From the NCBI RefSeq assembly GCF_030013205.1, contig NZ_CP122648.1: a DNA stretch of 64,000 nt; one strand, given 5' to 3'. Positions 570 to 55,818 of the stretch are shown one piece after another. The notes below the pieces were generated by a model. That model searched no databases. It was not told the origin of the DNA and worked only from the letters and a program-made list of their open reading frames with translations. Source of the stretch: Escherichia coli (GTDB taxonomy: Bacteria; Pseudomonadota; Gammaproteobacteria; Enterobacterales; Enterobacteriaceae). How positions within the stretch are numbered: position 1 is the stretch's first letter; each line of letters begins with the position of its first letter. The position numbers were made by a program, and so were the translations under genes.

Positions 570-653
570 GTTTGTGCTCCATATTTGTTATGCGGTGATC
601 CCTGTTGTCTTTCGACGCCAGAGGATAGACTCCACGCTTCAGACGCTACGCCG

Positions 654-1934
654 TTAGATCAAGTAATCGATCAACGCCGGTTCTTGTTTACAGAGGCGAC
701 GCCAGTCAACGATCGGCATACGAACTTGCAGACTTACGCTGCCGTCCTCCTCCATCCACTCTTTTTCTATTGCCTGAAGCTGATAAAAACGACTTCTCAG
801 ACGCCCTTCCTGCGGTGGCAGACGCAATGTATGCTGCGCCACCTCGCCGGAAAGCCGCTCCGTCAAAGCCTGAAAAAGCTGTGGTATCCCCGCTCCGGTC
901 TGTGCGGAAAGCCAGACACGGATCGGTTTGTTCTCTTCGTCCCGATCAATACGCGGTTCGAAATCTTCCAGCATATCGATCTTGTTCATCACCAGCAGGG
1001 TTGGGATCTCGTGAGCGTCGATCTCTTCAAGAACCGTATTTACCGCTTCGATGTTTTCTTGTACACGCACATCCGCCGCATCAATGACGTGCAGCAGCAA
1101 TGTGGCTTGCCGCGTCTCTTGTAACGTGGCTTTAAATGCCGCCACCAGATCGTGCGGCAGGTGGCGAATAAACCCTACGGTATCAGCCAACACGGTTTCA
1201 CCGACATCTGCGACGTCAATACGCCGCAACGTCGGGTCGAGGGTGGCAAACAACTGGTCTGCCGCGTAGACCCGCGCTTCGGTGATGCGATTGAAAAGGG
1301 TAGATTTACCGGCGTTGGTATATCCCACCAGCGAAACAGTAGGAACGTCGGCTTTGATACGCGATTGCCGCCCCTGCTCACGCTGCTTTTCAACTCTTTC
1401 CAGGCGCGACTGTATCTGCACGATGCGATTACGCAACAAACGACGGTCGGTTTCGAGCTGGGTTTCACCCGGACCACGCAAACCTATCCCGCCTTTCTGT
1501 CTTTCAAGGTGGGTCCAGCCACGCACCAGGCGCGTAGCCAGATGGCGCAGCTGCGCCAGCTCAACCTGCAACTTACCCTCATGGGTACGCGCACGTTGGG
1601 CGAAAATATCTAAAATAAGGCCGGTGCGGTCGATGACACGACACTCGCACAAACGCTCCAGGTTACGCTCTTGCGCCGGACTCAGGGCATGGTCAAAAAG
1701 AACGACCGAAGCACCCGTCGCTTTGACAGCTTCCGCAATTTCAACTGCTTTACCTTCACCTACAAAATACTTTGGGTGCGGCGCTTTACGGCTACCGGTA
1801 ATCACCTGCAATGCTTCGACACCGGCGGAAGAGACCAGAGATTCAAACTCCTGGAGGTCTTCCATATCTTTGTCTTGCGTAAAATAGATGTGTACCAGTA
1901 CCGCCTGCTCACCAGCATCATAACGGTCAAACAA
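654..1934 (-). CDS. hflX: GTPase HflX
   Basis: 426-aa ORF; G1 motif [10 protein letters not shown]3 DTVGF, NKID; position between hfq and hflK. Confidence 0.95.
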
Positions 1935-2010
1935 GCGTATAACCCTCTAAATAGATCAGCGGGGAACGCAGGATCGCTGGCTCCCCGTGTAAAAAAAACA
2001 GCCCGAAACC

Positions 2011-2331
<321 letters not shown>

Positions 2332-2404
2332 TTATATGCTTATTTGTACTTTGAACCTTTCGATTCTGAAAAAATTGCGCACGATACGTCTCAATTGTAC
2401 ACAT

Positions 2405-3355
2405 TCAGCCTGCGATAGCACCAACAACCTGTAATACTTCGTCACGCGCTTGTTCTGGTTTTTCACTGTCAAGCCAGTGAACCCCTTCCCAACCACGCAG
2501 CCAGGTTATCTGCCGCTTCGCCAACTGTCTCGTGGCGCAAACACCTCGATAAACCATTTCATCGTATGAGATTTCGCCTTCAAGGTAAGACCACATCTGG
2601 CGATAACCCACGCAACGAATGGAAGGCAAGTCCGTATGCAAATCTCCTCGGGCAAAAAGCGCCCGGACTTCTGCTTCAAAACCTGAAGCCAACATCTGAT
2701 GAAAACGCTGCTCAATTCGTTGATGGAGCAGTTCACGGCTCGCCGGGGCGATGGCGAACTGATGCACCTGATACGGTAGAGCGTCTCCTGACGTTTGCGT
2801 CAGTTCCGTTAAAGTTTTACCCGAAATGAAAAAAACTTCCAGTGCCCGGGAAAGCCTTTGTGGATCATTTGGATGAATCCTTGCTGCCGCAACCGGATCG
2901 ATCTCCTGAAGTTGACGATGCAATGACTCCCAACCTTGCTCTGCCGCCTGTTGCTCAATTCTGGCCCGCACTTCCGGGTCTGCCGACGGTAGCGGCGACA
3001 ACCCTTCCAGCAATGCCTTGAAATACAACATCGTACCGCCCACTAACAGTGGGATCCGCCCCGCCGCGGTGATATCGGCCATTTCCGCCAGCGCATCGCG
3101 GCGAAAATCAGCAGCCGAGTAAGCCTGCGACGGATCGCGAATATCCAGCAATCGGTGCGGCGCGGCGAGTAACTCTTCAGCGTTCGGCTTCGCCGTCCCG
3201 ATATCCATCCCTTTGTAAATAAGGGCAGAATCAACGCTTATCAACTCTACTGGTAAAATTTTACGCAGCTCAATGGCTAACGCCGTTTTACCGGAGGCCG
3301 TCGGCCCCATCAAAAAAATCGCCTTAGGCAGGCTCGCCTTACTGATATCACTCAT
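2405..3355 (-). CDS. miaA: tRNA dimethylallyltransferase MiaA
   Basis: 316-aa ORF with P-loop GPTASGKT; overlaps 3' end of mutL by 8 nt as in the mutL-miaA-hfq operon. Confidence 0.95.
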
Positions 3356-5195
3356 CTTTCAGGGCTTTTATCGCCGGATGTAAATCAACAGATTGTAACA
3401 GACCACCCGGCGGCGTTTTCACAAGTTGCGGACATAACCGTTCCACGTCCGCTAGCAGGGTTATGGCCTGTGCCATTGACCACTGCGCATGTTCGCTCAT
3501 CAGATTTCGTGCAATCCACTGCGCAATATTGCCAGGTTCGAATACGGACTGCTTCGCCAGGTAGCCTATCAGTTCAGGAATCAAGATTTGTAAATTTTGT
3601 TGGCGTAAGGGTAAAGGCACGGCCCTGATGGTCACATGCTGTGCATCTGACTGGAAATCAATACCCAATTCCGCCAGGGCAGACTGCGCTTTTTCTAATG
3701 CCGATTTTTCTTCGCCAGAAACTTTTAGCCGCAACGGAATAAGCAACGGCTGGGCGCAAACTGGCGCTTCACCCGGCGTCAGTTGCGCCTGACGCAGCCA
3801 ACGTTCTGCCACTGGCAAGGCTAAAAGTGAAATGTTGCCGTCGCGCTCCAGCAACGCACAGTCGGAATGAACGATAGTCAGTACCCGACCAAAACTCTGA
3901 CTGTTCGCCGCAAGTGCAGGTTCCTGCGGTTCTGGCGCTTTTGGTTTTTGCATCGGCGCGGGCGTTTGCAAAAGCTGGCGATACACTTCACCTTGCTGTT
4001 TCTGGTAACCTGGCTGCGCATTCGGCCAGGGGGCAGCCGGACGACTGCCTGAGGCGGGCGCAGGAGTGTAACGCGGAGCTACTGGCTCACGAAATGCCGG
4101 TTCAGCAAAATGATTGCGCCCCGCCGCCACGCGGTTTTCCGGGATGGCGCGCGGTGCAGGTTGTGGTTCATCGTCCAGCGGTAGCGGCGTTTCCAGTTGC
4201 TGTTGTAGCACGCTCAGCACGCCCTGATAGATAAAATCATGCACCAGACGCGACTGATGGAAACGCACTTCGTGTTTGGCAGGGTGCACGTTGACGTCCA
4301 CCTGATGTGGGTCGATCTCCAGATACAGCACAAATGCCGGTTGCTGATCGGCCCCCAGTTTGTCTTCACAGGCCTGGCGGATCGCGTGATTGATCAGGCG
4401 ATCGCGCATCATGCGACCATTCACATAGCAATACTGAATTTCCGCCAGTGCGGGCGTGGTGTGATTCGGATCTGCCACCCAGCCGCGCAGCGTAAGATCG
4501 CCGTGTTGCCATTCAATCGCCAGCGCTTGTTCGAGAAAAGCGGTACCGCAAATCGCGCCTAAGCGCCGTTCTTTTTGCCCGCCTTCCGGCACTGCGCGGT
4601 ACTGACGCACAATTTTACCGTTATGCGACAGGTTGATCGTGACGTCGAAACGCGCCAGCGCAATGCGGCGGATGATCTCATCAATGTGGTTAAATTCGGT
4701 TTTCTCGGTGCGCAGGAATTTGCGCCGCGCCGGGGTGTTGTAGAACAGATCCAGCACCTCCAGCGTCGTTCCCACAGGATGCGCCGCCGGTTTTACCGTC
4801 ACGTCCATATCGCGCCCTTCGGCATAGGCCTGCCAGGCTTCCTGCTGTTCTGCGGTACGTGAAGTGAGCGTCAGGCGGGAAACCGAACTGATACTCGCCA
4901 GAGCCTCACCGCGAAAGCCCAGGCTGATAATGGCTTCGAGATCGTCCAGAGAGGCGATTTTACTGGTGGCATGACGAGCCAGCGCCAGCGCCAGCTCATC
5001 TTTTTTGATACCGCAGCCGTTATCACGAATGCGGATAAGTTTCGCCCCACCGCGTTCGATATCAATATCGATACGCGTCGCACCTGCATCGAGGCTGTTT
5101 TCCACCAGTTCTTTGACTACCGACGCAGGTCGCTCGACCACCTCACCTGCGGCAATCTGGTTCGCCAGTTGTGGCGGTAAGACCTGAATTGGCAT
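3348..5195 (-). CDS. mutL: DNA mismatch repair protein MutL
   Basis: 615 aa from second Met ([38 protein letters not shown]), GHKL ATPase motifs. Confidence 0.95.
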
Positions 5196-5204
5196 CAATA
5201 ATCC

Positions 5205-6542
5205 TTAGTTTGGCAGCGTGCGATCTGGCGTCGTCACCGTACTGGCCGTTTGTGCCGCTGTACCCTGCGGCGCAGATTGCATCGGATGCGCAAGGAAATA
5301 ATTACGCAGGCCTTTGTAAATGGCTTCTGCCAGCTGTTGTTGGTAATCGTCGCTCGCCAGCAAACGTTCTTCGCTGTTGTTGCTGATAAAACCGGTTTCG
5401 ACCAGTACTGATGGGATATCCGGCGAGCGCAGAACGCCAAGGCTGGCGTGTTCTGGTCGACGTTTATGAATTTCGCCAATGCGTTGCAACTGACTGATCA
5501 TACTGGTCGCTACATCATACCCTACCCGCTGGGAATGACCGAACTGTAAATCCAGCACCGCCTGGCTTAAATAGGGGTCAGACTGACTGTTCGCCAGCAC
5601 ATCGCCCGCTCCGCCCAATAGCTCCGACTGTTTCTCATGCTGTTCCAGCCAGCTTGCCATCTCGCTGTTTGCACGACGGTTAGAGAGCACCCATACGGAA
5701 GCGCCAGTCGCACTGCGGTTTGGTGCGGCATCAGCGTGAATCGACACGAGGAAATTGGCGTTTTGCTTACGTGCCACATCGCTGCGCCCCATCACCGAAA
5801 TAAAGTAATCCCCATCACGAGTTAAAACGCCTTTAAACATCGGATCGTCATTGAGCAAAGTACGCAATTTACGCGCGATGGCGATGGTGACATTTTTCTC
5901 CCGCGTACCACCGGGGCCGATAGCGCCAGGATCCTGACCGCCGTGTCCGGCATCAATAGCGATGATAATTTTATCGCCTGTGTTAGCCGTCGCACGCGCT
6001 GCCGGACGCGTTACCGTATTACTGCTGATAACACCCGTAGTGCGGTTACTTTCCGTTTTAAACGGATTGCGCGCCGGTTCGCTGACGCGCGGTGCGACAA
6101 CCGCAGGCGTTTCAACGCGTTTCGCAACCACAGGCGGCGGAGGAGGCGGTGGCGGCGCATCGGCGTTAATCGTAAAGACGACAGTGTAATTGCTGCCATT
6201 CTGCCGCTTCACCGCTTCGGTTTTACCATTTTCGGTAAGATCGACCACCAGCCGTAGCGTTTGTGCATCTTTAGGCGTTCCAGAGCGAATCGCCTTCACC
6301 AGATTATTGCCGCTGAACAACAACGGCAGTCCCTGAATCACGCCCGTTTGTTTGATATCGAGCGCCACGGTGCGTTTGCTTTGATGGCTAAACGCATAAT
6401 CAGGATCGCCAATAAAACTCAACGTTATCCGCGCCTGTTGGTTGCCGTTAGAAACCTGAATATCAGAGAGCGTCGCGGCACCCACCGGCGCGCACAGCAG
6501 CAGCAACGTCGCTACCAACCAATTTCTGATGCGATACATCAT
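5205..6542 (-). CDS. amiB: N-acetylmuramoyl-L-alanine amidase AmiB
   Basis: 445 aa from internal Met ([16 protein letters not shown] signal peptide); amidase_3 core; contains an 8-proline run. Confidence 0.93.
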
Positions 6543-6560
6543 CCCGCCACCTTTCAAAGG

Positions 6561-8526
<1,966 letters not shown>

Positions 8527-8539
8527 TGTATGGTCCGTC

Positions 8540-9679
8540 ATGTCAGAGCCCCTCGATCTCAATCAGTTAGCGCAAAAAATTAAACAGTGGGGGCTGGAAC
8601 TGGGCTTTCAGCAGGTAGGTATTACCGATACCGATCTCAGCGCGTCCGAGCCCAAACTGCAAGCATGGCTGGACAAACAATACCACGGCGAAATGGACTG
8701 GATGGCGCGTCACGGTATGCTGCGTGCTCGTCCTCACGAATTATTGCCCGGTACGCTGCGCGTGATCAGCGTGCGGATGAATTACCTTCCTGCTAACGCC
8801 GCATTTGCCAGCACGCTGAAAAATCCCAAACTCGGCTATGTTAGCCGTTATGCGCTGGGCCGTGACTATCACAAGCTTCTGCGCAACCGACTCAAAAAGC
8901 TGGGCGAGATGATTCAGCAACATTGTGTTTCGCTGAATTTTAGACCGTTTGTCGATTCTGCGCCTATTCTCGAGCGCCCGTTAGCTGAAAAAGCAGGACT
9001 TGGCTGGACAGGTAAGCACTCACTTATCCTCAATCGCGAAGCCGGTTCGTTCTTCTTTTTAGGCGAATTGCTGGTCGATATTCCGCTGCCCGTGGATCAA
9101 CCAGTCGAGGAAAGATGCGGTAAATGCGTGGCCTGTATGACGATTTGCCCGACCGGTGCCATCGTCGAGCCATATACCGTAGATGCTCGCCGCTGCATTT
9201 CTTATCTGACGATAGAACTGGAAGGGGCGATCCCGGAAGAGTTACGCCCGTTAATGGGAAACCGTATTTACGGTTGCGATGACTGCCAGCTTATCTGCCC
9301 GTGGAATCGCTATTCACAACTCACTACAGAAGACGATTTCAGCCCGCGTAAGCCGCTACACGCACCGGAACTCATTGAGTTATTCGCCTGGAGCGAAGAG
9401 AAGTTTTTAAAAGTCACGGAAGGATCGGCGATTCGCCGTATAGGTCACCTGCGCTGGCTGCGTAATATCGCCGTGGCATTAGGCAATGCCCCCTGGGATG
9501 AAACGATTCTGGCGGCGCTGGAGAGTCGCAAAGGTGAGCACCCACTTCTTGATGAGCACATAGCGTGGGCGATTGCGCAGCAAATAGAGAGACGAAATGC
9601 GTGCGTGGTCGAAGTGCAATTGCCGAAAAAACAGCGTCTGGTTCGGGTGATTGAAAAAGGGTTACCGCGTGACGCCTGA
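8540..9679 (+). CDS. queG: epoxyqueuosine reductase QueG
   Basis: 379 aa from internal ATG at 8540 (MSEPLDLNQLAQKIKQWGLELGF); two 4Fe-4S cysteine motifs CGKCVACMTICP and CDDCQLICP. Confidence 0.9.
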   Translation: MSEPLDLNQLAQKIKQWGLELGFQQVGITDTDLSASEPKLQAWLDKQYHGEMDWMARHGMLRARPHELLPGTLRVISVRMNYLPANAAFASTLKNPKLGYVSRYALGRDYHKLLRNRLKKLGEMIQQHCVSLNFRPFVDSAPILERPLAEKAGLGWTGKHSLILNREAGSFFFLGELLVDIPLPVDQPVEERCGKCVACMTICPTGAIVEPYTVDARRCISYLTIELEGAIPEELRPLMGNRIYGCDDCQLICPWNRYSQLTTEDDFSPRKPLHAPELIELFAWSEEKFLKVTEGSAIRRIGHLRWLRNIAVALGNAPWDETILAALESRKGEHPLLDEHIAWAIAQQIERRNACVVEVQLPKKQRLVRVIEKGLPRDA

Positions 9680-9948
9680 TTCATCCACAGCTTGTGAATA
9701 AAAATAAAAACGCATTGCAATTCAAGACGAATAAAATCGTCAAGTGATCGACTCAACAAAACGAAATCTTAATTTTTAACTTATCTATCAATAGATTAAA
9801 AAAATACTATTCACCGTGCGAAGTTTCTTTGAAATTAAGATTACGGCCTGAGGCTGTGGATAACTCTGTTTACAAGAGTTTGTCAGAGACAACAAAAACC
9901 AGCAATAACGCATCGCGTCGCTGTGGATATTTTATTGAGAGAAGAATT

Positions 9949-29076: not shown

Positions 29077-30735
<1,659 letters not shown>

Positions 30736-30766
30736 TTAAATTCGTATGTTCAGTGTCGTGCGCGGA

Positions 30767-31111
<345 letters not shown>

Positions 31112-39120: not shown

Positions 39121-39196
39121 GCCCGGATAGCTCAGTCGGTAGAGCAGGGGATTGAAAATCCCCGTGTCCTTGGTTCGATTCCGAGTCCGGGCACCA
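39121..39196 (+). tRNA. pheU: tRNA-Phe (GAA)
   Basis: GCCCGGATAGCTCAGTCGGTAGAGCAGGGGATTGAAAATCCCCGTGTCCTTGGTTCGATTCCGAGTCCGGGCACCA, 76 nt with GAA anticodon and CCA end. Confidence 0.97.
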
Positions 39197-42385: not shown

Positions 42386-43714
42386 ATGAGCCACAGGGAA
42401 TTGTTCAGCGAATTTCTTGAAAATTTGAATCTTGACCTCAAACAGGCAAAAAAGATCAGCTATCACTATCGAAAAATAACCAAGTCATTAAATCTTGCGT
42501 TCAGAGGAACGAGTTCCCGGGTAGCAAACCGCTTGAAAGTGGGGTCAGTAGGCAGACATACCGCAATAAAAGGCATATCCGATCTGGATATGCTTTATAT
42601 TATGCCCCCCAATCAGTATGAATATTATAACCGTAAGGATAATGGTCAGTCTGCATTGCTTACAGATGTCAGAAACATTCTGGCGGAAGAATATCCTGAC
42701 CAGACTGTGAAAAAGGACAGACTGGTTGTTCAGATCATCTTTAAAAACTTTTATGTCGAGGTTCAACCTGTATTCAGACAGGATGATGACAGCTTTAAAT
42801 TCCCTGAAAGCTATAATGGAGGAGCATGGCGCATTACAAAACCTCTTCACGAAAAGGCGGCCATGACCGCATTTTCGCGAGATAAATCCAATAATCTGCG
42901 CAAGCTGTGTAAAATGATCAGAGCCTGGAAGAACCTGCATGGCGTCAATATGGGTGGCTTACTGATAGACACACTAGCGTATCGCTTTCTTTCATCAACA
43001 TCAGATTATGACAATACCGGAAATGGCAGCCTGGGAGCCCTCGCCAGAGACTTTTTTGAATATCTGTCAAATGAGGAGAGAAAGGAAAGGTATCTCGCGT
43101 TAGGCAGTAATCAGCATGTACGTGTTAAATCTCCCTGGTTTGGCCGGGCAGCGAAACACGCGTATGAATTATGTTGTGATGCCTTAGACGCTGAGGGGGC
43201 TGCCAGTGAAAATGACCGCTGGCGCAAAGTGTTCGGACGAGCCTTCCCCAGACGTAAAGTGGGTATTATGGAAGCCCGTCTTGGTCTGGAATCGCATGCG
43301 GCAGATGCTGTTCCCTGGACCGATACCGAAGAGTTTATAGAGGATAAATATCCGGTGGATATCAGGTACTCACTCAACCTTGACTGTACCGTAACCCAGG
43401 ATGGTTTCCCTCCCAGAAGCCTGAGGGAGATGCTTACCAGAAGATTCCGCCTCTCCGCTCGAAAATCTCTCCTTTTCCGGGCAGACTTGACAGAAATGGA
43501 GGCAGAGGAACCCTACACCGTTATGTGGAAGGTACTGAACGTGGGTGACGAAGCACGCAGAAGAAATATGATCCGGGGACAAATCGTTTCGGACGGCGGC
43601 TACTGTACGAAGAAAGAAACTACCGACTTCCGCGGAGATCACATGGTAGAATGCTATGTGATAAAAAATGAGGTTGTGGTTGCCCGGGCCCAGATTGAAG
43701 TTCCCATAAGCTGA
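42386..43714 (+). CDS. polymerase-beta-superfamily nucleotidyltransferase, SMODS/CD-NTase-like (candidate signalling nucleotide or oligonucleotide synthase)
   Basis: 442-aa ORF with SD AAAGGAA; NTase signature G-S-x10-D-L-D (GSVGRHTAIKGISDLD) near the N-terminus; stop overlaps the SD of the next gene. Confidence 0.6.
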   Translation: MSHRELFSEFLENLNLDLKQAKKISYHYRKITKSLNLAFRGTSSRVANRLKVGSVGRHTAIKGISDLDMLYIMPPNQYEYYNRKDNGQSALLTDVRNILAEEYPDQTVKKDRLVVQIIFKNFYVEVQPVFRQDDDSFKFPESYNGGAWRITKPLHEKAAMTAFSRDKSNNLRKLCKMIRAWKNLHGVNMGGLLIDTLAYRFLSSTSDYDNTGNGSLGALARDFFEYLSNEERKERYLALGSNQHVRVKSPWFGRAAKHAYELCCDALDAEGAASENDRWRKVFGRAFPRRKVGIMEARLGLESHAADAVPWTDTEEFIEDKYPVDIRYSLNLDCTVTQDGFPPRSLREMLTRRFRLSARKSLLFRADLTEMEAEEPYTVMWKVLNVGDEARRRNMIRGQIVSDGGYCTKKETTDFRGDHMVECYVIKNEVVVARAQIEVPIS

Positions 43715-43721
43715 GGTTTTT

Positions 43722-44297
43722 ATGACGCAATCAGAGATGCTGAAATTAATCGCCCGACATGGTTATAACGTTGGATTTGGCGCTAAGAAAAACTTTGCCA
43801 CCTATGATCTGATTTGTAAGGCATCCGGTTGGATTAGCTTTATTTCTCTTGCTGTCGGTGTGTTCGCCCTTTTTATTCCTGAGCTGGCCACAAACGTCAT
43901 TTCCGCGATATTAATTATATTTGGTGTTGCTACAATGTACATTCAGTTTTATGACTCGGAAAAGCAGAGTTATGAAAGTGCGGGGATTGAGCAGACCAAA
44001 ATTTTTAATGAACTTGAAGTCATCTACCGCAACGTAAAAAGCGATGCAAACTTTGACTATCAGCGTACACAACAATCCATCGACGCTATCATGTCCCGGT
44101 TTTACGGCACGGTCATCAGCAAACAGATCTTCGGAAGTAACTGGTACGCACATTATAAATTTTACTGTGAATTTGAAAAAGCATGGGTTGAAGAAGAGCT
44201 GAACCTGACACTGAAGGACAAAATCCCGCTTTCGCTCTGCTTTCTCGCCGGTCTGGCGATCATTTTTACTATAGCTGTCATCTGGAAAACGCCCTGA
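43722..44297 (+). CDS. 2-TM membrane protein, SLATT-like candidate effector
   Basis: 191-aa ORF starting 8 nt after the NTase stop; two adjacent hydrophobic helices (ISFISLAVGVFALFIPELATNVISAILIIFGVATMYI) plus a C-terminal hydrophobic segment. Confidence 0.6.
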   Translation: MTQSEMLKLIARHGYNVGFGAKKNFATYDLICKASGWISFISLAVGVFALFIPELATNVISAILIIFGVATMYIQFYDSEKQSYESAGIEQTKIFNELEVIYRNVKSDANFDYQRTQQSIDAIMSRFYGTVISKQIFGSNWYAHYKFYCEFEKAWVEEELNLTLKDKIPLSLCFLAGLAIIFTIAVIWKTP

Positions 44298-49539: not shown

Positions 49540-50742
49540 CTATTTTTTAAAGAATGAAATAAGCTTTCTTATCCCAGTCCATATTTTCCTATCAGAATCC
49601 GAAGGGTTAAATTCGCTCTTGTCAAAATCAGCAACCTCAGCAACCTCAGCAACCTCAGCAACCTCAGCAACCTCAGCAACCTCAGCAACCTCAGCAACCT
49701 CAGCAACCTCAGCAACCTCAGCAACCTCAGCAACCTCAGCAACCTCAGCAACCTCAGCAAGGTTTATTCTATTTTGATGAGCTGTCAAATGTTCTTTGTT
49801 AATTTCATCTCTAATTAGCTGTTCTTTTTCTATGCTGTAGTTTTTGTCATTATAAGTCACATCAAAATCATCTAAGAAAACGATATAAATCAATTTAAAA
49901 AAACTAGTCTTAAATAAAAAACTATCGCACTCATCAGGAAAACCAAAAAAGAAAACATTAAGATATTTGGTTGCTTTGCGCTTGTCTTTTAGTCCATTAT
50001 AATACTTATTTGCTTCTGCTCTTTGTTTTTCATACTCACTACAGAAAAAACTCTTTTTACTTTCATCCCATTCTGAAGCATCAATTTCAAGTTTATATGC
50101 TTGTTTGGTACCTTTCTTTCTGGCTAAAAAAGTAAGGTAATATCTATTCGAATTTATCTCCAGCCGTATATTAGATTGAATTTTACCAAAATAAATTGCT
50201 GGCTTATTATATCTAATTCCTTCTTTATAGATGATTAGTTGAAAAGTATCTTTATAAGTTCTAACTCCATAAGGGGGAATTGATAATGGTTCATAGAGAT
50301 TATCTCCATTAATGTAGTAGTCTACTACCGGTTTGATGCTTGAAGATGACACAGGGTGTACTTTACCTCCCAAATCTTTTTCATCATCTCGCGTCTGTTT
50401 GATAATTCTTCTGCCAGAAGAGTCGTAATTTCTTTCAGACACATCAAGTTTCAGAAGAGATATAGCTAATGCCGGTGGTGAATTATGCTTTTTATTATTC
50501 TTTGAGTTACACTTATTTTTACTCTTAGGATCATGAATCTTACATCCCGGCCTATGAGTCTCTTTATATCGAAAGTATGATTGATTTAAATTTATTTCTT
50601 TGAAGCTACATGGAGTAGCGGGTATCCTACATTTGTCATACGGGCATTCAAAAGTGGTTGTTCGTATATAAAGATCATCCATTTCCCGAAGATCATGACC
50701 ATGAACAATTTCACCACTAACAGAATCTCTTGCTATTGTCAC
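49540..50742 (-). CDS. uncharacterised cysteine-rich protein with C-terminal (AEV)n repeat
   Basis: 400-aa ORF from GTG at 50742 preceded by a perfect SD (AAGGAG, 5-nt spacer); N-terminal CPYDKC...C...C cysteine cluster; AT-rich; ends 131 bp upstream of qatA on the same strand. Confidence 0.7.
   Translation of the reverse strand: MTIARDSVSGEIVHGHDLREMDDLYIRTTTFECPYDKCRIPATPCSFKEINLNQSYFRYKETHRPGCKIHDPKSKNKCNSKNNKKHNSPPALAISLLKLDVSERNYDSSGRRIIKQTRDDEKDLGGKVHPVSSSSIKPVVDYYINGDNLYEPLSIPPYGVRTYKDTFQLIIYKEGIRYNKPAIYFGKIQSNIRLEINSNRYYLTFLARKKGTKQAYKLEIDASEWDESKKSFFCSEYEKQRAEANKYYNGLKDKRKATKYLNVFFFGFPDECDSFLFKTSFFKLIYIVFLDDFDVTYNDKNYSIEKEQLIRDEINKEHLTAHQNRINLAEVAEVAEVAEVAEVAEVAEVAEVAEVAEVAEVAEVAEVAEVADFDKSEFNPSDSDRKIWTGIRKLISFFKK
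49629..49760. repeat. perfect 9-bp tandem repeat, about 14.7 copies (unit AGCAACCTC on + strand)
   Basis: Uninterrupted identical units read directly; in-frame within the 400-aa ORF, encoding Ala-Glu-Val repeats. Confidence 0.97.
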
Positions 50743-50980
50743 ACAATCTCCTTTGATAAAAATTAATAGATTCTAATTTCATACCAAGGCTAATTTAAAT
50801 AAAGGCTATTTAAGAGAAAAACAAGTCAGCCTGACAGACATATCCCCTCCCATGGCAATATGCCGCTATTTCGCGTTTTTTTTCACGCCATAATGCGTTT
50901 CAAGGTAGCGAATATCTTCGATTGCCCATGGTGTGCGCATTCTTTTGGGTTTATTTTCCATTACCATGTTTTATCAGCCA

Positions 50981-51235
50981 TCATGGCAGCCTCTCCGGTT
51001 TGCCAGCGTGTTCCACCTGATAACGATTAATCAGCTGATTCAGTGCCATTTCAGCCTGTTTTTGCTGCTGTTCACTGCCATTCTGGTTACGGGCTTCATC
51101 ATAGCGACGTAACTGCTCTTCCGCCGGGATATGCCGGTTAAAAGCCTGCATGATGCCAAACACCTCTGTTTTCAGTTCACTGACCGTCATGTATTTTCCC
51201 CGCTGTTCATCCAGACGGTTCAGGCGCTCAGCCAT
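50981..51235 (-). CDS. hypothetical small protein
   Basis: 84-aa ORF, Gln/Glu-rich helical; no family recognised. Confidence 0.4.
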   Translation of the reverse strand: MAERLNRLDEQRGKYMTVSELKTEVFGIMQAFNRHIPAEEQLRRYDEARNQNGSEQQQKQAEMALNQLINRYQVEHAGKPERLP

Positions 51236-51950
51236 CCGCGGCCTGAAGAGATAAAGGCGATAATAAAACAGACATCAGTGTCAGTGACAGCAAGGACGGA
51301 CAGCGCCGGAATAAGCTTTGTTCCTCAGCCCTCACGTTCCTGCAACATAATTTTCCAGCCAAACGAAAAACCTTTTATTCATGCCATACCAATAATCGCC
51401 AGCCTCCTGGCGATGCCTCCCACCATGTTTTGCAGTGGTACGCTACCGCCCTTCCGGTATTTACCCGCATCAACCGGTACCAGAATGCTGAGTAACAAAC
51501 CAGCTCAGAACTGACTGAATTTTGATCATTATAGAATAATGATCTGAACTGCAGCAATATAACAGATTTATCGATCGATATAACGCAAATGAACAGATCT
51601 TTATTCTGTCATATATCGCAAAAACAGCACATTACAAAATTTATAACCATAATTAATGGAAAAGTGCAGAAAATTATTCCACTGAATGCTTTTAATACAG
51701 TTAGTTAGCTAAAAAAATAGCAATTTTTGATTTCAGTCATTGAAAATTGCAATGCGTGACGATTCAACAGCATTTAAGTGAGTTTCAGGATATGGGAAGG
51801 ACATGAAAGGAGGAGCGCAATAAAATATACAGGAAGAAGGGGAAAATGTTTCGTAAAAACAGAAAATTAACAGCGCACATCAGGAAACTCAGTCTCCTGA
51901 TTCAGTGCTACCACATGAAAATTTAGTTAACTGTTACCGTACTAAAATTT

Positions 51951-52142
51951 ATGTCAGAAGATGTTCCATTACCGAAAGTCAATCAGCGATACAAAGACGA
52001 TCATGGTGCGCTTGTCACCGTGACCAGTGTTGAGGAAACCCGGGTGGTGTTTATGCGGGACGGCTATCCGCATCCCTGCATGCGACCGATGTACAACTTT
52101 CTGGGAAAATTCAAACCCGAACCCCGGGAAGAAACAGAATAA
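51951..52142 (+). CDS. hypothetical small protein
   Basis: 63-aa ORF following a roughly 450-bp AT-rich non-coding region. Confidence 0.3.
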   Translation: MSEDVPLPKVNQRYKDDHGALVTVTSVEETRVVFMRDGYPHPCMRPMYNFLGKFKPEPREETE

Positions 52143-52194
52143 AACGAAATCCCTGCCGGCAATCACACTGCCTGATGGCAGCATAATCCACTTA

Positions 52195-52428
52195 TTAATT
52201 CTCATCCCCGGAGACAAGCCCAGAAAACCACTCCGGGTGTTCACTGTATGCCGTGTTCAGCGCATCCCAGGAAACGTTTATATAAAAGCTGTCCTGCAAT
52301 TTCCGGGTAACCACCTCTGCCAGGCGGTTCCGGTTATCCGCCAGTCCGGCATAACCTCTCTCTGTCAGCCACTCATTCAGTTCATGTTTCAGAGACAGAT
52401 TAATAATCTCATAATCGGACCTTGCCAT
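52195..52428 (-). CDS. hypothetical small protein
   Basis: ORF 52195-52503; start placed at internal MARSDYEIINLSLKHELNEWL; start uncertain. Confidence 0.4.
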   Translation of the reverse strand: MARSDYEIINLSLKHELNEWLTERGYAGLADNRNRLAEVVTRKLQDSFYINVSWDALNTAYSEHPEWFSGLVSGDEN

Positions 52429-52523
52429 TCCCGTTTCCTTAGCACATATTTTCAGGCACGGGGATAAAGTATAAAGAATGTCGTACTGCTGCTGCCAGAG
52501 CAATATTCCCCCTGATGGTTGTA

Positions 52524-53183
52524 TCAGAGATGGTATGCCGGTACTTTGCGGGTTGTTCCTGTCAGGTTATCGTGCACCTCCACGGTCGTGGTCACCACCG
52601 GCATTCCGGCCTTTCTCAGCCTCAGAACATCAGCCGCAATACGCTGACTGCCAAACCAGAACAGGCCGTCCAGTGCAGTCACCAGTAAACCCGCCTCCAG
52701 TGCATACTTCAGCCGTTCACGGGGCGCTTTCACTTCCCGGGCAACCTGCTGATATGGCAATGATGTGTTTTCATTCCCAACCACGCGACGAATACGGTGA
52801 GACAGATGATACCGGAATGTATCCGGCACACCAGAAAGGCTGGCCTTCAGGCTGTACACGCAACCAAACCGTTTATCGTTAAACACCACATTTTTCTGGC
52901 TGATGCCCCATTCTTCACGCAGCGCGGCAATCAGTTGTGGTGTCCGGGTAAGCAGCAAGCGAAAAGGCAGTTCAAAACTGGTGACGTAATCCACATTCAG
53001 CAGTGCAATACGCAGCCGTTCTTCTGGCCCGGCCTCTGTCTGCCGGCACTCCTCCAGAACATCCTGCCACTGCTGGCGAAGACGGGGCGATTCGCTCCGT
53101 TCTGTAAAACAGTATTTATCCGCCAGATAGTCAATTTGTGTACGCATACTGAAGAGCATTCCGTATAAAGATTCAGCTGACAA
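52524..53183 (-). CDS. hypothetical protein
   Basis: 219-aa ORF with core-like codon usage; no family recognised by eye. Confidence 0.55.
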   Translation of the reverse strand: MSAESLYGMLFSMRTQIDYLADKYCFTERSESPRLRQQWQDVLEECRQTEAGPEERLRIALLNVDYVTSFELPFRLLLTRTPQLIAALREEWGISQKNVVFNDKRFGCVYSLKASLSGVPDTFRYHLSHRIRRVVGNENTSLPYQQVAREVKAPRERLKYALEAGLLVTALDGLFWFGSQRIAADVLRLRKAGMPVVTTTVEVHDNLTGTTRKVPAYHL

Positions 53184-53456
53184 AACTTTATCAGTCCATA
53201 AGAATCAACGGAAGCACCGATGGTTCACTTGGTCATCGCCAAGTTTTGCCATAACCGGTAGCAATGATCATTCTGTGTAACTATTTGGCCCACAGATGAT
53301 GATGTTTATCGATGTCTCCTCTGTCTGAATGTCGCATAAAGAGGATCATCAGCAGACACAGCCAGTGAACCACCGTCCGCGGAACAAAGCGCCGGACCAC
53401 ATCCGGATCCGGCAGGGACATGACTGGCATGATCAAGTAATTATGTCGCATCTCCC

Positions 53457-53870
53457 TCACTCCTGGTCCCGGAGCAAATCTGGCTGGTATCTGTAAACAT
53501 ACTTCGTACATGCCGCTCTGCAATAAATCCCCGTATCACAGGTTTCACAGAACTTCTTCCCATGAAAAAGCCTCTCGCACATCACGCAATGCCACTCCAG
53601 CACGACAGGTAATGGCGATAAAAACATCGCCATATCATCAATGTAAGGATGGGATTTTTCCGGATTCAGCACCACGCAGGCCGCCTTCTGTTGCGCGCTC
53701 AGGGCATGTAAATCATGCTCAAACCACGCCCCCTGAGCATCTGTCTGCAAAATCAACCGGCCACGACAGGAAAGGCAGAAACACTGCCGGATATTTCTGC
53801 TGAGCGCAGAGTTGGCACTGATAATGTGCTCACCCGGCGTGATCCCCAGCCCCATTTTTATGCCGTTCAT
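53457..53870 (-). CDS. hypothetical cysteine-rich (zinc-ribbon-like) protein
   Basis: 137-aa ORF with CxxC pairs (CFCLSC, CVMCERL, CETCDTGIYCRAAC); ATGA-type 4-nt overlap with upstream gene. Confidence 0.5.
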   Translation of the reverse strand: MNGIKMGLGITPGEHIISANSALSRNIRQCFCLSCRGRLILQTDAQGAWFEHDLHALSAQQKAACVVLNPEKSHPYIDDMAMFLSPLPVVLEWHCVMCERLFHGKKFCETCDTGIYCRAACTKYVYRYQPDLLRDQE

Positions 53871-54256
53871 CCTGCTACCACCTCCTCACTGAAGCGCCCG
53901 GTCTGGCAGTGTGTGCAGTACTGCTCCCCATAATAATCGTGGTGACATTGTCTGCAGTACCAGCTGGCTTTACGTACTACGGGTAAGGCATCCGGTACGA
54001 ATTGCTGCAGACGTTTAATCAAACGTATTTCTCTGCGTTCCGGTCTGACATAAGGGCACTCATGACCGTGCTCAGTCAGCCCATCGTCAGTGTGTTCAAA
54101 CCAGGGACGTTCAGTGTCGTATTGCGGGTGGTATCTGAGTGCACTGCCACAAAGATGACAGGTATAACGATCATATGGCGCAGTCTGTGCGGTACGGGCA
54201 CCGGTCAGACGTCCGTTGCCATCAAATGCGAGAAAAGATTTTGCGTACATAGTCAT
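53867..54256 (-). CDS. hypothetical cysteine/histidine-rich (zinc-ribbon-like) protein
   Basis: 129-aa ORF with CHLCGS, HECPY, CRQCHHDYYGEQYCTHCQTG motifs. Confidence 0.5.
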   Translation of the reverse strand: MTMYAKSFLAFDGNGRLTGARTAQTAPYDRYTCHLCGSALRYHPQYDTERPWFEHTDDGLTEHGHECPYVRPERREIRLIKRLQQFVPDALPVVRKASWYCRQCHHDYYGEQYCTHCQTGRFSEEVVAG

Positions 54257-54509: not shown

Positions 54510-55079
54510 TCAACTCCGGCTACAGCCAAAATTACGCTCACCGGTACCGTTGACTTTGGTGTACTCTTTCGCGAGATAGTCAGCACGGTTCAGCATATCC
54601 CGTAAACCAGCATCATCATCGCGTTCCAGCCACACCACCGGCCTGGCCGGAAAATGCACCAGCGTGGCATAGCATCCGGCATCCACCCCCAGGGCACTGC
54701 ACCACGCCTGTTTAATCATCCCGGCCAGTGACCCCGGATCGCGGTAATCGCCCGCACCACACCAGGTATCACGGTTGACCAGCAGTATCAGGTGATAGTG
54801 TTTTTTACCCCTGAGCACCCCGAATTCCCGGGCCCAGACGTAATGCAGCCTTGTGGTATGTACGCGTTTACCTTCACGGCGCTTACGCTTCTGGTAAGCA
54901 TCGATTCGGGCTTTCAGGGCATTGATGAAGCGGGATATCACTGCTGCGTCAGTTGCTGCCGGTACATCCGGGAGACGCAGGTCAACCCGCAATGCCGTCA
55001 GACGGGGATGAACATCAAGTGCGCGCAGCACCGTCTCACGGATACGTTGTTGCCAGAAGGGTTTGTACTCGTGTGTCAT
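54510..55079 (-). CDS. YfjJ/YagK-family (inovirus Gp2-like) protein
   Basis: 189-aa ORF; sequence and length recalled as matching the YagK/YfjJ family of CP4-type cryptic prophages. Confidence 0.7.
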   Translation of the reverse strand: MTHEYKPFWQQRIRETVLRALDVHPRLTALRVDLRLPDVPAATDAAVISRFINALKARIDAYQKRKRREGKRVHTTRLHYVWAREFGVLRGKKHYHLILLVNRDTWCGAGDYRDPGSLAGMIKQAWCSALGVDAGCYATLVHFPARPVVWLERDDDAGLRDMLNRADYLAKEYTKVNGTGERNFGCSRS

Positions 55080-55818
55080 GGTTAAATCTCCGTATGGTTT
55101 CGTTCATACGGAATAACCACGCCGTTAAAAATGCGCAGAGTCCCTGAAGTGATCGCCAACCAGGCAATATCTCAGGCACCCGGTGATAACCCGACAGTCG
55201 TCTCCGGACTGACGGCTGAATTTTCAGCGTTGTTTTTTTAATGCAAAAAGCCGGTTACGGGGAAGGTTGTGAGGAGGACGTGATGGTGATACGCCAAACG
55301 GTGTGCAGGGATTGTGATAACGCCATCCCTCATAATACGGAATGTTGCCCGAGCTGCGCGTCAACAGCTTCCTCAGGCTATTACCGAAATACCGATCGTC
55401 TGCTCTTTCTACTGACGTTACTGTCTGTGCTGATTCTGGCTGTCGTTTCAGGCGTCAGTGTATTTGTACTGTTGCGGTAGGTTACAGGGGAGGAATTATC
55501 CGGAATCAACGGGGCAGAACGCCCCGCCGCCTCTGCGTTTGCTGTGCCAGACAGTAACGCGCCGGATCCCCGGTAAATACGAGAAAACCTCAGCATATAC
55601 AGGCCGGTAATGCCCGAAAATCAGCCCATGACCACCCACACCTCCGGATACCATTCCCTTTTGATTTCGAATTCTTCGCTATACCGCTTAACGTTCCCGG
55701 TATTATCCTGGTTCCCGACAACAGGAACATATTCAGCTTTTAACAACCTGAGAAAACCCAAAAAGAATCACACAGAGCAGATAACACCTGGCGCAATACC
55801 GCTGTGATTGCCAAACGT

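What the first reader, a model, noticed from the sequence alone, without database searches (positions are those of the whole stretch)
50743..54256. Run of uncharacterised small genes between the defence operon and the CP4-57-like module
Seen: several ORFs with no recognisable family (84, 63, about 77, 219, 137 and 129 aa), including an overlapping pair of Cys/His-rich proteins, located between Qat and a YfjJ-like gene, flanked by AT-rich non-coding DNA. Inference by guilt-by-association: genes embedded in defence islands are enriched for undescribed defence or anti-defence functions, so these are candidates; equally they may be prophage regulatory or replication remnants.
Basis: inference. Interest (0 to 1): 0.5.

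Follow-up and report, generated by a model that had tools for sequence, protein, structure and literature searches.

The report
Island backbone genes plus T6SS scar
These small genes are ordinary, already catalogued but functionally untested core and regulatory genes of a very common E. coli genomic island, mixed with leftovers of a deleted secretion-system cluster; nothing ties them to the phage-defence operon next door.

Summary
The ORFs are real and sit at the stated coordinates, but "no recognisable family" is wrong for most of them.

- **84 aa:** a pseudogene fragment, the C-terminus of a type VI secretion (T6SS) VasL/TagA-like gene.
- **63 aa:** DUF4222, the family of the regulator RgdR.
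- **219/207 aa:** NCBIfam ECs1377 family, with an unmatched N-terminal domain plus a winged helix.
- **137 and 129 aa:** paralogous DUF7828 + Zn_ribbon_11 proteins.
- **56 aa (annotated in RefSeq):** a truncated remnant.
- **77 aa:** the only true orphan.

The window is a tRNA-Phe island of porcine ETEC/STEC. Parts of the block occur in 4286 of 5426 complete E. coli genomes, often in several copies.

The zinc-ribbon pair follows the YagK/YfjJ ("inovirus Gp2") gene in all nine E. coli islands inspected. The cargo beyond it varies: LEE, BREX, fec, sialate, pectin or Qat.

The ECs1377/77-aa/DUF4222 trio is O157 Sakai ECs1377/ECs1378/ECs5415. In related islands it lies directly upstream of a Sci-1-type T6SS or a CDI operon. 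The AT-rich DNA is the remnant upstream region of tssB and cdiB.

The defence/anti-defence reading has no support (no PADLOC hit, cargo-independent linkage). Interest is low.

The parts
50981..51238 (-). Pseudogene fragment: C-terminal end of a T6SS VasL/TagA-like gene (the '84 aa ORF')
   Evidence: Pfam VasL 1.1e-15, model positions 72-144 of 147. RefSeq marks it 'VasL domain-containing protein, incomplete, missing N-terminus'. It is 90.7% identical to the VasL fragment at the far end of a decayed T6SS in strain E1624. In strain SY038 a VasL fragment lies after tssE at the distal end of a largely intact T6SS cluster.
51234..51509 (.). Remnant of the 5' end and upstream region of a cdiB (POTRA/ShlB-type) gene; deletion junction at about 51234
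   Evidence: Strain MS10860 carries the same Qat island with an extra 524 bp here, giving a longer VasL fragment plus a POTRA pseudogene. This segment is annotated as a POTRA-domain protein in many genomes.
51510..51950 (.). AT-rich non-coding DNA homologous to the intergenic region upstream of tssB of a Sci-1-type T6SS cluster
   Evidence: blastn gives 82%, 81% and 72% identity to the tssB-upstream regions in strains C9 (L014), E1624 (L018) and SY038 (L017). GC is 0.32.
51951..52142 (+). 63-aa DUF4222 protein (equivalent to O157 Sakai ECs5415); putative small regulator
   Evidence: Pfam DUF4222 3e-21. PHROG 1343 and 285. It is 36% identical to RgdR/ECs1581 and 96.8% identical to ECs5415.
52195..52428 (-). 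77-aa orphan protein (equivalent to ECs1378), always next to the ECs1377 gene in Escherichia
   Evidence: No hit in Pfam, NCBIfam, PHROGs, PADLOC or PDB. 119 protein clusters, almost all from Escherichia. dN/dS 0.07-0.43. 93.5% identical to ECs1378.
52524..53147 (-). ECs1377-family protein (207 aa from ATG; the ORF extends to a TTG at 53183): unmatched N-terminal alpha/beta domain plus C-terminal winged helix-turn-helix
53281..53451 (-). 56-aa ORF: truncated N-terminal remnant of a roughly 182-aa island backbone protein
   Evidence: 35-44% identity to residues 8-58 of the 182-aa protein of L013/L014, whose E1624 counterpart RefSeq calls 'UCP030791 family putative phage-derived protein'; the ORF then ends. 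A similar 60-aa ORF is present in FORC_043.
53457..53870 (-). Zinc-ribbon protein 2 (137 aa): DUF7828 + Zn_ribbon_11
   Evidence: Pfam 1.2e-20 and 4e-13. Cys/His ligands are conserved among diverged copies and dN/dS is 0.10-0.31. It overlaps the upstream paralog by 4 nt.
53867..54256 (-). Zinc-ribbon protein 1 (129 aa; 127 aa in RefSeq): DUF7828 + Zn_ribbon_11
   Evidence: Pfam 4.8e-29 and 3e-07. dN/dS 0.08-0.13. A query spanning both zinc-ribbon genes and the YagK/YfjJ gene matches 3828 genomes, and sampled rows show this gene contiguous with YagK/YfjJ. H54, C66, C100, C103 and C116 are invariant in a 70-sequence alignment.
54510..55079 (-). Neighbouring backbone gene: YagK/YfjJ ('inovirus Gp2') protein with HUH-like motifs; likely functional partner of the zinc-ribbon pair
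   Evidence: Pfam YagK_YfjJ_C 2.1e-45 and REP_ORF2-G2P 5e-5. The motifs LRVDL, HYHLIL and YLAK are conserved in alignment A3.

Best explanation
The interval is a mosaic of three ordinary things inside a tRNA-Phe genomic island of the CP4-57 / SpLE1 / LEE-PAI / EAEC pheU-PAI type.

**(1) Zinc-ribbon pair, 53457-54256.** The two overlapping paralogous zinc-ribbon genes are the last genes of the island's conserved backbone (GTPase/Ag43 ... YfjI ... AlpA-like HTH ... Hha ... YagK/YfjJ, then ZnR1, then ZnR2). The variable cargo begins right after them.
- *Inferred mechanism:* they are small DNA-binding accessory proteins that work with the adjacent YagK/YfjJ protein. That protein carries the motif pattern of an HUH rolling-circle Rep/relaxase. 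Together they would recognise or process island DNA for replication or mobilisation after excision, or regulate that step.

**(2) The trio ECs1377-family winged-helix protein / 77-aa protein / DUF4222 protein, 51951-53147.** This is the same trio as Sakai ECs1377/ECs1378/ECs5415. In related islands it sits directly upstream of a Sci-1-type T6SS cluster or a cdiBA operon.
- *Inferred mechanism:* these are local transcription regulators of that cargo, left as orphans here.

**(3) Scar DNA.** The AT-rich DNA (51234-51950), the VasL fragment (50981-51238) and the 56-aa ORF are scars. They are the tssB/cdiB upstream region, the distal end of the deleted T6SS, and a truncated backbone gene.

The Qat/CBASS-like defence genes lie beyond the scar, in the cargo part of the island.

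**Shown:** family assignments, synteny, homology of the scar DNA, and purifying selection.
**Inferred:** DNA binding, partnership with YagK/YfjJ, and a regulatory role over T6SS/CDI.
For: **Identity and context.**
- The window is 100% identical to porcine ETEC/STEC chromosomes, with tRNA-Phe, a P4-type integrase and the RefSeq annotation.

**Families.**

**Backbone linkage of the zinc-ribbon pair.**
- A query spanning ZnR2, ZnR1 and YagK/YfjJ matches 3828 of 5426 genomes. Nearly all sampled rows cover both ZnR1 and the Gp2 gene.
- Nine inspected E. coli islands keep ZnR2-ZnR1-Gp2-(hha)-HTH while the DNA beyond ZnR2 differs: sialate/IS66, fec/IS66, BREX, pectin, LEE, unknown, IS100, Sci-1 remnant (FORC_043), and the window itself.

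**Fusion.**
- In Serratia oryzae one 508-aa ORF joins DUF7828 + Zn_ribbon_11 to a YagK/YfjJ-like domain.

**HUH-like motifs and Rep hits.**

**Trio next to T6SS or CDI.**
- Strains C9, E1624 and FORC_043 have the trio followed by tssB, with or without tssC.
- Strain CH436 has the trio followed by cdiBA.
- Sakai SpLE1 has the trio followed by IS629 and a HecB-like gene.
- Serratia oryzae, Kosakonia and Citrobacter have an ECs1377 homolog followed by a T6SS.

**Scar.**
- DNA homologies are, the 524-bp difference from MS10860, and the distal VasL fragment of the SY038 T6SS.

**Fold and selection.**
- Winged-helix fold.
- RgdR homology: with PMC10877973.
- Purifying selection.

**Literature.**
- The EAEC pheU PAI carries Sci-1 and Sci-2 (PMC6730261).
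- Pseudomonas islands with an int + alpA + Gp2-like + HTH + RadC core carry defence cargo (bioRxiv 10.1101/2024.08.29.610337, read; one search lists the published version, PMC12595487).
Against: **No function has been tested for any of these families.**

**Zinc-ribbon/YagK-YfjJ partnership.**
- It rests on adjacency and on a single fusion ORF.
- The YagK/YfjJ-like part of that fusion lacks the HUH and Tyr motifs.
- The fusion is not among the best 150 of 233 family representatives.
- YagK/YfjJ genes also occur without zinc-ribbon genes: K-12 yfjJ and yagK, and the islands of C9 and CH436.

**ECs1377 as a T6SS/CDI regulator.**
- Across 80 loci from other species, about five have T6SS genes and about four have cdiB within 10 kb. 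The rest lie among housekeeping genes. A dedicated T6SS/CDI regulator role is therefore far from proven.

**Structure and signals.**
- The zinc-ribbon model is of moderate confidence and has no structural neighbour.
- No promoter, terminator or repeat signal stands out above chance.
Confidence: 0.65

Rival explanations
1. The genes are undescribed anti-phage defence or anti-defence genes that belong functionally with the neighbouring Qat/CBASS-like defence cargo.
For: They lie within 1-5 kb of Qat in this window. In strain CFS3246 a BREX-1 system abuts the zinc-ribbon pair. Other islands have nucleases or ATPases near the VasL fragment. The families are functionally untested.
Against: There is no meaningful PADLOC hit; the only hit is E = 0.009 on the pseudogene fragment. 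The same genes flank LEE, fec, sialate and pectin cargo. Parts occur in 4286 genomes against 234 for the Qat block. No enzymatic or effector domain is predicted; only zinc ribbons and a winged helix are found. A T6SS/CDI scar separates them from Qat.
Confidence: 0.07
2. The whole interval is decaying, functionless DNA: former genes of a degraded island, kept only by hitch-hiking.
For: Two pieces are clearly fragments: VasL' and the 56-aa ORF. Other strains show truncated or frameshifted copies: ZnR2 frameshifted in FORC_043 and truncated in ST131, the 77-aa gene with an internal stop in E1624, and ECs1377 truncated in FDAARGOS_497 and MS10860. Many short variants of the 77-aa protein exist. 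IS debris is common around the block.
Against: The five intact genes show dN/dS well below 1 in informative pairs, over divergences up to dS of about 2 for ECs1377. The zinc ligands are invariant. ECs1377 keeps its length of about 207-213 aa in most of the homologs listed, across many genera.
Confidence: 0.15
3. The zinc-ribbon pair acts on its own, independent of YagK/YfjJ. It could be a pair of transcription factors or nucleoid-associated regulators of island or host genes, or a stabilising (addiction-like) pair.
For: The two small genes overlap in an operon-like arrangement. Other regulators cluster nearby: Hha, an AlpA-like HTH, and PerC in related islands. A 254-nt gap separates them from the YagK/YfjJ gene.
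Against: The two proteins are paralogs, unlike typical toxin-antitoxin pairs. Adjacency to YagK/YfjJ is near-universal in sampled E. coli hits. A fusion with a YagK/YfjJ-like domain exists.
Confidence: 0.12

Closest known systems
Backbone of E. coli tRNA-associated islands of the CP4-57 / CP4-44 / SpLE1 (O157 Sakai) / LEE-PAI / EAEC pheU-PAI type
   Same: A P4-type integrase sits at tRNA-Phe. The island also carries an AlpA-like HTH, YfjI (DUF3987), YagK/YfjJ, Hha, the YeeP-type GTPase and Ag43. The ECs1377/ECs1378/ECs5415 trio is 94-98% identical to Sakai SpLE1. FORC_043, which also carries an aaiC T6SS, has the identical order Gp2-ZnR1-ZnR2-small ORF-ECs1377-77aa-DUF4222 followed by tssB.
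   Different: K-12 CP4-57 and CP4-6 have YagK/YfjJ but lack the zinc-ribbon pair and the trio. In the window the T6SS/CDI cargo after the trio has been deleted, and Qat plus CBASS-like genes lie beyond the scar.
RgdR (ECs1581), the DUF4222 prophage regulator that activates Ler/LEE type III secretion in EHEC (PMC10877973)
   Same: Same Pfam domain (3e-21). 36% identity over 58 residues.
   Different: The window's protein is shorter (63 against 99 aa). It lacks the RGD tripeptide highlighted for RgdR. It lies in a different element, and no regulatory activity has been tested.
HUH rolling-circle Rep/relaxase proteins, e.g. inovirus gpII and Pfam REP_ORF2-G2P (for the neighbouring YagK/YfjJ gene), some of which use zinc-binding DNA-recognition modules (own knowledge: IS91-family transposases, Helitron Rep)
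   Same: The motif order LRVDL / H-Y-H-hydrophobic / Y-x-x-K is present. There are weak profile hits to REP_ORF2-G2P (5e-5) and to a PHROG replication initiator (1.4e-3). A zinc-ribbon module is encoded alongside and, in one species, fused.
   Different: No nicking activity, origin or hairpin was identified. The protein is short (189 aa). In E. coli the zinc-ribbon proteins are separate polypeptides.
Sci-1-type T6SS cluster of the EAEC pheU PAI, with its terminal ImpA_N/VasL (TagA-like) gene
   Same: Window 51510-51950 is homologous to tssB-upstream DNA. Window 50951-51229 is homologous to the VasL fragment at the distal end of such clusters. T6SS clusters on the pheU PAI are documented (PMC6730261).
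   Different: The T6SS genes themselves are absent from the window. Only the two ends remain, joined through a cdiB remnant.
Pseudomonas genomic islands with an intY-alpA-Gp2-like-HTH-RadC core and defence cargo (bioRxiv 10.1101/2024.08.29.610337; published version PMC12595487)
   Same: The core has the same logic (tyrosine integrase, AlpA, Gp2-like protein, HTH protein, RadC), with a variable cargo that is often defence systems.
   Different: Different genus. Zinc-ribbon or ECs1377 homologs were not reported in the passages I read. Phage-mediated transfer of the E. coli islands was not examined here.

Membership tests
Pfam DUF7828 + Zn_ribbon_11 ('putative zinc ribbon protein') | Significant match to both profile HMMs in the order DUF7828 then Zn_ribbon_11 | tested here: met
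   129-aa protein: 4.8e-29 and 3e-07. 137-aa protein: 1.2e-20 and 4e-13.
Pfam DUF7828 + Zn_ribbon_11 ('putative zinc ribbon protein') | Conserved Cys/His metal ligands (CxxC...WFEH...C and CxxC...CxxC) | tested here: met
   H54, C66, C100, C103 and C116 are invariant, and C32, C35 and C113 are at least 90% conserved, in 70 sequences. The ligands are also conserved in diverged ZnR2 copies. Metal binding itself was not tested.
NCBIfam NF052300 ECs1377 family (equivalog) | Whole-protein score above the curated cut-off of 190 bits | tested here: met
   327.2 bits, E 2.5e-98, covering model positions 1-190 of 190. 97.6% identical to Sakai ECs1377.
Winged helix-turn-helix DNA-binding proteins (for ECs1377) | Winged-helix fold | tested here: met
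Winged helix-turn-helix DNA-binding proteins (for ECs1377) | Sequence-specific DNA binding and a regulated target | not testable with these tools
   Requires EMSA, ChIP or reporter assays.
DUF4222 / RgdR-like regulators | DUF4222 domain | tested here: met
   Pfam 3e-21. 36% identity to RgdR.
DUF4222 / RgdR-like regulators | RGD tripeptide noted for RgdR (PMC10877973) | tested here: not met
   RgdR has ...FMRGDIY... The aligned N-terminal part of the 63-aa protein reads ...KVNQRY..., and no RGD occurs anywhere in it.
Known anti-phage defence systems (PADLOC-DB v2) | Match to a component model of a known or candidate system | tested here: not met
   There were no hits for the six intact proteins at E <= 0.01. 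The only hit was PtuA at E = 0.009 on the VasL pseudogene fragment.
T6SS VasL/TagA-like accessory protein | Intact ORF with the full VasL domain (and ImpA_N) inside a T6SS cluster | tested here: not met
   Only model positions 72-144 of 147 are present. RefSeq marks it as a pseudogene. No T6SS genes are adjacent.
HUH endonuclease (Rep/relaxase) superfamily, for the adjacent YagK/YfjJ gene | HUH motif and catalytic Tyr motif in the canonical order | tested here: met
   HYHLIL and YLAK are conserved across YfjJ, YagK and island copies. REP_ORF2-G2P 5e-5.
HUH endonuclease (Rep/relaxase) superfamily, for the adjacent YagK/YfjJ gene | Site-specific ssDNA nicking with a covalent 5'-phosphotyrosine intermediate | not testable with these tools
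   Needs biochemistry. No candidate nick-site hairpin was found.
Toxin-antitoxin pair (considered for the two overlapping small genes) | Two unrelated proteins, one toxic and one neutralising | tested here: not met
   The two proteins are paralogs with the same domain architecture. Toxicity was not tested.

The most novel reading that the evidence does not exclude
The zinc-ribbon pair and the YagK/YfjJ HUH-like protein together form a previously unrecognised initiator (a Rep- or relaxase-like complex with separate zinc-ribbon DNA-recognition subunits). This complex would drive replication or mobilisation of the commonest family of E. coli tRNA-associated islands (LEE, SpLE1, pheU/pheV PAIs, CP4-57-like). 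That would explain how these apparently non-conjugative islands and their defence or virulence cargo move. In parallel, ECs1377/DUF4222 would be dedicated regulators of the Sci-1 T6SS and CDI cargo.
Probability: 0.2. Interest if true: 0.45.

Novelty: already known. Interest (0 to 1): 0.15.

Why it matters
As it stands, the result mainly corrects an over-reading. Proximity to a defence operon inside a genomic island is weak evidence when the genes belong to the island's conserved backbone. It also explains the AT-rich 'non-coding' DNA as the orphaned upstream region of a deleted T6SS/CDI locus.

There is a modest positive lead. The zinc-ribbon pair marks the backbone-cargo boundary of a very widespread island family, and may be useful as an anchor for cataloguing cargo and defence hotspots. 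Its linkage to an HUH-like YagK/YfjJ protein suggests a testable replication or mobilisation module for islands that carry LEE, T6SS, CDI and defence systems.

Tried and rejected
- **Defence models.** PADLOC gave nothing for the intact genes.
- **K-12 homologs.** tblastn against CP4-57 and CP4-6 found only YagK/YfjJ.
- **ECs1377 N-terminal domain.** AFDB50 Foldseek returned only the protein's own family and generic winged helices, so the N-terminal domain stays unassigned.
- **'ECs1377 is a T6SS regulator' as a general rule.** I rejected this after fetching 80 loci from other species. Neighbours are highly diverse and mostly housekeeping genes, and no neighbour family occurs in more than 10 loci.
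- **More fusions.** The representative search of 1.84 billion clusters listed almost only stand-alone proteins of 40-170 aa; the longest listed are 203 and 238 aa.
- **RNA and signals.** The Rfam scan gave one chance-level hit. Promoter and terminator scans were at chance level. The repeat search found no convincing origin-like hairpins or iterons.
- **Fur box.** The best match in the tssB-upstream homolog was 12 of 19 positions, reached by 373 of 500 shuffles.
- **Phage relatives.** Only one weak phage hit was found for the DUF4222 protein.

Full report
**Observation**

- 84 aa, 50981-51235 (-)
- 63 aa, 51951-52142 (+)
- 77 aa, 52195-52428 (-)
- 219 aa, 52524-53183 (-); 207 aa from the ATG that RefSeq uses
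- 137 aa, 53457-53870 (-)
- 129 aa, 53867-54256 (-)

The last two overlap by 4 nt (ATGA) and are Cys/His-rich. RefSeq also annotates a 56-aa ORF at 53281-53451 (-). The flanking DNA is AT-rich: GC is 0.32-0.39 against about 0.50-0.53 in the genes.

The statement that the ORFs have no recognisable family does not hold.
- The 84-aa ORF matches Pfam VasL (1.1e-15, C-terminal half only). RefSeq marks it as a pseudogene.
- The 63-aa ORF is DUF4222 (3e-21).
- The 219-aa ORF is NCBIfam ECs1377_fam (327 bits, cut-off 190).
- Both Cys/His proteins are DUF7828 + Zn_ribbon_11, and they are paralogs at 30% identity.
- Only the 77-aa protein is an orphan.

**Where the window comes from**

The interval is 100% identical to chromosomes of porcine ETEC/STEC strains such as K_EC180. 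It lies in an island inserted at tRNA-Phe (window 39121-39196). The gene order, from the K_EC180 annotation, is:
- a P4-type integrase and IS debris;
- a nucleotide-binding/SLATT gene pair;
- QatABCD and a roughly 400-aa hypothetical gene;
- the interval under study;
- YagK/YfjJ ('inovirus Gp2'), Hha, an AlpA-like HTH gene, YfjI, the YeeP-type GTPase and Ag43.

**Are they real genes?**

I compared each ORF with diverged copies.
- Pairwise dN/dS is 0.08-0.13 for ZnR1 and 0.10-0.31 for ZnR2.
- It is 0.08-0.40 for ECs1377 in informative pairs, including pairs with dS above 1 against Kosakonia, Citrobacter and Serratia.
- It is 0.07-0.43 for the 77-aa gene.
- For DUF4222 only one pair is informative, at 0.06. 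Its other pairs have 6 or fewer substitutions and give 0.55-1.14 or no estimate.
- The zinc ligands are invariant or nearly so.

So five ORFs are, or recently were, functional genes. Two are not.
- The 84-aa ORF is a fragment.
- The 56-aa ORF matches only residues 8-58 of a 182-aa backbone protein of related islands and then stops.

**Distribution: backbone, not cargo**

- Parts of 51234-54256 occur in 4286 of 5426 complete E. coli genomes, with a median of 2 and up to 11 places per genome.
- The block is mosaic. One sub-block, about 51234-53250, holds DUF4222, the 77-aa gene and ECs1377. The other, 53466-54256, holds the zinc-ribbon pair. The two are distributed independently; both together, at 80% coverage or more, occur in 180 genomes.
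- A query spanning both zinc-ribbon genes and YagK/YfjJ matches 3828 genomes. Sampled rows show ZnR1 contiguous with the YagK/YfjJ gene.
- The adjoining Qat/400-aa/VasL' block is present at 80% coverage or more in 234 genomes.

I inspected nine E. coli islands. The order ZnR2-ZnR1-Gp2-(hha)-HTH-hypothetical is constant in all of them. The DNA beyond ZnR2 varies:

| Strain | DNA beyond ZnR2 |
|---|---|
| ST131 | sialate catabolism / IS66 |
| LSN03-016011/A | fec operon / IS66 |
| CFS3246 | BREX-1 |
| Res13-Lact-EA06-22 | pectin genes plus a second YagK module |
| FORC_042 | LEE (ler, escE ...) |
| TO148 | unknown cargo |
| EC43 | IS100 / helicase |
| FORC_043 | 60-aa ORF, trio, Sci-1 T6SS remnant |
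| window | 56-aa ORF, trio, scar, Qat |

The zinc-ribbon pair is therefore the last conserved backbone element before the cargo region. Guilt by association with Qat has no statistical footing.

**The trio and the T6SS/CDI scar**

The ECs1377/77-aa/DUF4222 trio is 94-98% identical to ECs1377/ECs1378/ECs5415 of O157 Sakai SpLE1. In related islands it is followed directly by one of two cargo types.
- *A Sci-1-type T6SS.* Strain C9 has a lone tssB. E1624 has tssB-tssC-tssK'-tssE' and then VasL fragments. FORC_043, which also carries the aai T6SS, has exactly the window's order Gp2-ZnR1-ZnR2-small ORF-ECs1377-77aa-DUF4222 followed by tssB-tssC'.
- *A cdiBA operon.* This is seen in CH436. In Sakai a HecB-like remnant lies beyond an IS629.

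The scar DNA maps onto these arrangements.
- Window 51510-51950 is 72-82% identical to the tssB-upstream intergenic region of C9, E1624 and SY038.
- Window 50951-51229 is 90.7% identical to the VasL fragment at the other end of the decayed T6SS in E1624.
- In SY038, which keeps a largely intact T6SS, the cluster ends tssE - ImpA_N' - POTRA' - VasL'.
- Strain MS10860 carries the same Qat island with 524 extra bp at the junction, giving a longer VasL' plus a cdiB/POTRA fragment.

The AT-rich 'non-coding' DNA is therefore the orphaned upstream region of tssB and cdiB. The 84-aa ORF is the distal end of the deleted cluster, and the Qat cargo lies beyond that scar. T6SS clusters on the EAEC pheU PAI are documented (PMC6730261).

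**What the proteins probably do**

*ECs1377.* AF2 gives a confident model (pLDDT 87) with an N-terminal alpha/beta domain of about 125 residues and a C-terminal winged helix.
- AFDB50 returns only the protein's own family, annotated 'DNA-binding protein'.
- In Kosakonia, Citrobacter and Serratia oryzae a 70%-identical homolog heads a T6SS cluster.
- Across 80 loci from other species the neighbours are very diverse and mostly housekeeping genes.
- I therefore treat 'local regulator of the adjacent T6SS/CDI cargo' as an inference, not a finding.

*DUF4222.* The protein is 36% identical to RgdR (ECs1581), the one characterised member, which activates Ler/LEE. It lacks RgdR's RGD tripeptide.

*Zinc-ribbon proteins.* The AF2 model is of moderate confidence (pLDDT 75) and has no structural neighbour. 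The family is small, with 233 representative clusters among 1.84 billion. The named hits are almost all Enterobacterales.

*The neighbour YagK/YfjJ.* It matches YagK_YfjJ_C (2e-45) and, weakly, REP_ORF2-G2P (5e-5) and a PHROG replication initiator. An alignment of eleven homologs shows LRVDL / H-Y-H-hydrophobic / Y-x-x-K, the motif pattern of HUH Rep/relaxases.

*A fusion.* In Serratia oryzae one 508-aa ORF fuses DUF7828 + Zn_ribbon_11 to a YagK/YfjJ-like domain. That copy has lost the HUH and Tyr motifs.

My best mechanistic guess is that the zinc-ribbon proteins are DNA-recognition or accessory partners of the HUH-like protein, in island replication, mobilisation or its control. It rests on adjacency, a single fusion and motif reading, so it remains speculative.

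**Comparison with the known**

Everything here belongs to catalogued, though uncharacterised, families. It also belongs to a long-known island architecture: CP4-57-like elements, SpLE1, the LEE PAI and the pheU PAI. Pseudomonas islands with an int/alpA/Gp2-like/HTH/RadC core and defence cargo show the same logic. K-12 CP4-57 and CP4-6 lack the zinc-ribbon pair and the trio.

**Verdict**

- The defence/anti-defence interpretation is not supported.
- Novelty: already known.
- Interest: low, about 0.15.
- The residual lead is the possible zinc-ribbon/HUH initiator module of this island family.

Noticed in passing
window 49540-50742 (-), tandem repeat 49628-49760: The 400-aa hypothetical gene between QatA and the VasL fragment contains a perfect 9-bp x 14.8 tandem repeat encoding (AEV)n. 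Its annotated length varies between strains: 400 aa here, a 1293-nt CDS (about 430 aa) in K_EC180 and a 1446-nt CDS (about 481 aa) in MS10860. It has a weak PADLOC hit to PD-Lambda-4_B (4e-6) and travels with the Qat block in 234 genomes. It may be an accessory or separate defence gene with a contingency-type repeat.
   Followed up: partly
L086 (Serratia oryzae NZ_MOXD01000003.1) 8327-9853: A single 508-aa ORF fuses DUF7828 + Zn_ribbon_11 to a YagK/YfjJ-like domain that has lost the HUH and Tyr motifs. It sits after two tandem 348-aa YagK/YfjJ paralogs and before an ECs1377 homolog and a T6SS cluster.
   Followed up: partly
L007-L012, L026 (Kosakonia, Citrobacter): ECs1377 homologs (about 70% identity) sit at the head of a T6SS cluster, with different outer flanks in the two genera. 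In several other species a homolog lies among alaA/ypdAB and yfdC/mlaA/fadL/fadI-type housekeeping genes with no T6SS within 10 kb.
   Followed up: partly
window 51524-51596: Four GATC sites cluster within 75 bp of the tssB-upstream homolog. The EAEC Sci-1 (T6SS1) cluster is reported to be under Fur control (PMC6730261); from my own knowledge its promoter is also Dam-regulated. No significant Fur box was found here (12 of 19 positions, at chance level).
   Followed up: partly
window 42386-44297 (+): A nucleotide-binding-domain protein and a SLATT-domain protein (191 aa, 43722-44297) form a two-gene pair between IS debris and Qat. It looks like a second, separate defence-type module in the same cargo region.
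   Followed up: no
window 55283-55480 (+): A small Cys-rich ORF with a hydrophobic tail (RefSeq 65-aa hypothetical; 79 aa from an upstream ATG) is annotated at the same position between the YagK/YfjJ gene and hha in several related islands. No family was found.
   Followed up: no
L104 (E. coli SY038) 29412-30788: The terminal ImpA_N/VasL (TagA-like) gene of a largely intact T6SS is itself interrupted by a POTRA (cdiB) fragment. This suggests that recombination between cdiB copies generated the VasL'-POTRA' junction seen in the Qat islands.
   Followed up: no
L099 (E. coli CFS3246) 1-7405: A complete BREX-1 system (pglX, pglZ, brxL) ends 265 bp from the stop of ZnR2. The position immediately after the zinc-ribbon pair can therefore hold defence cargo.
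   Followed up: no
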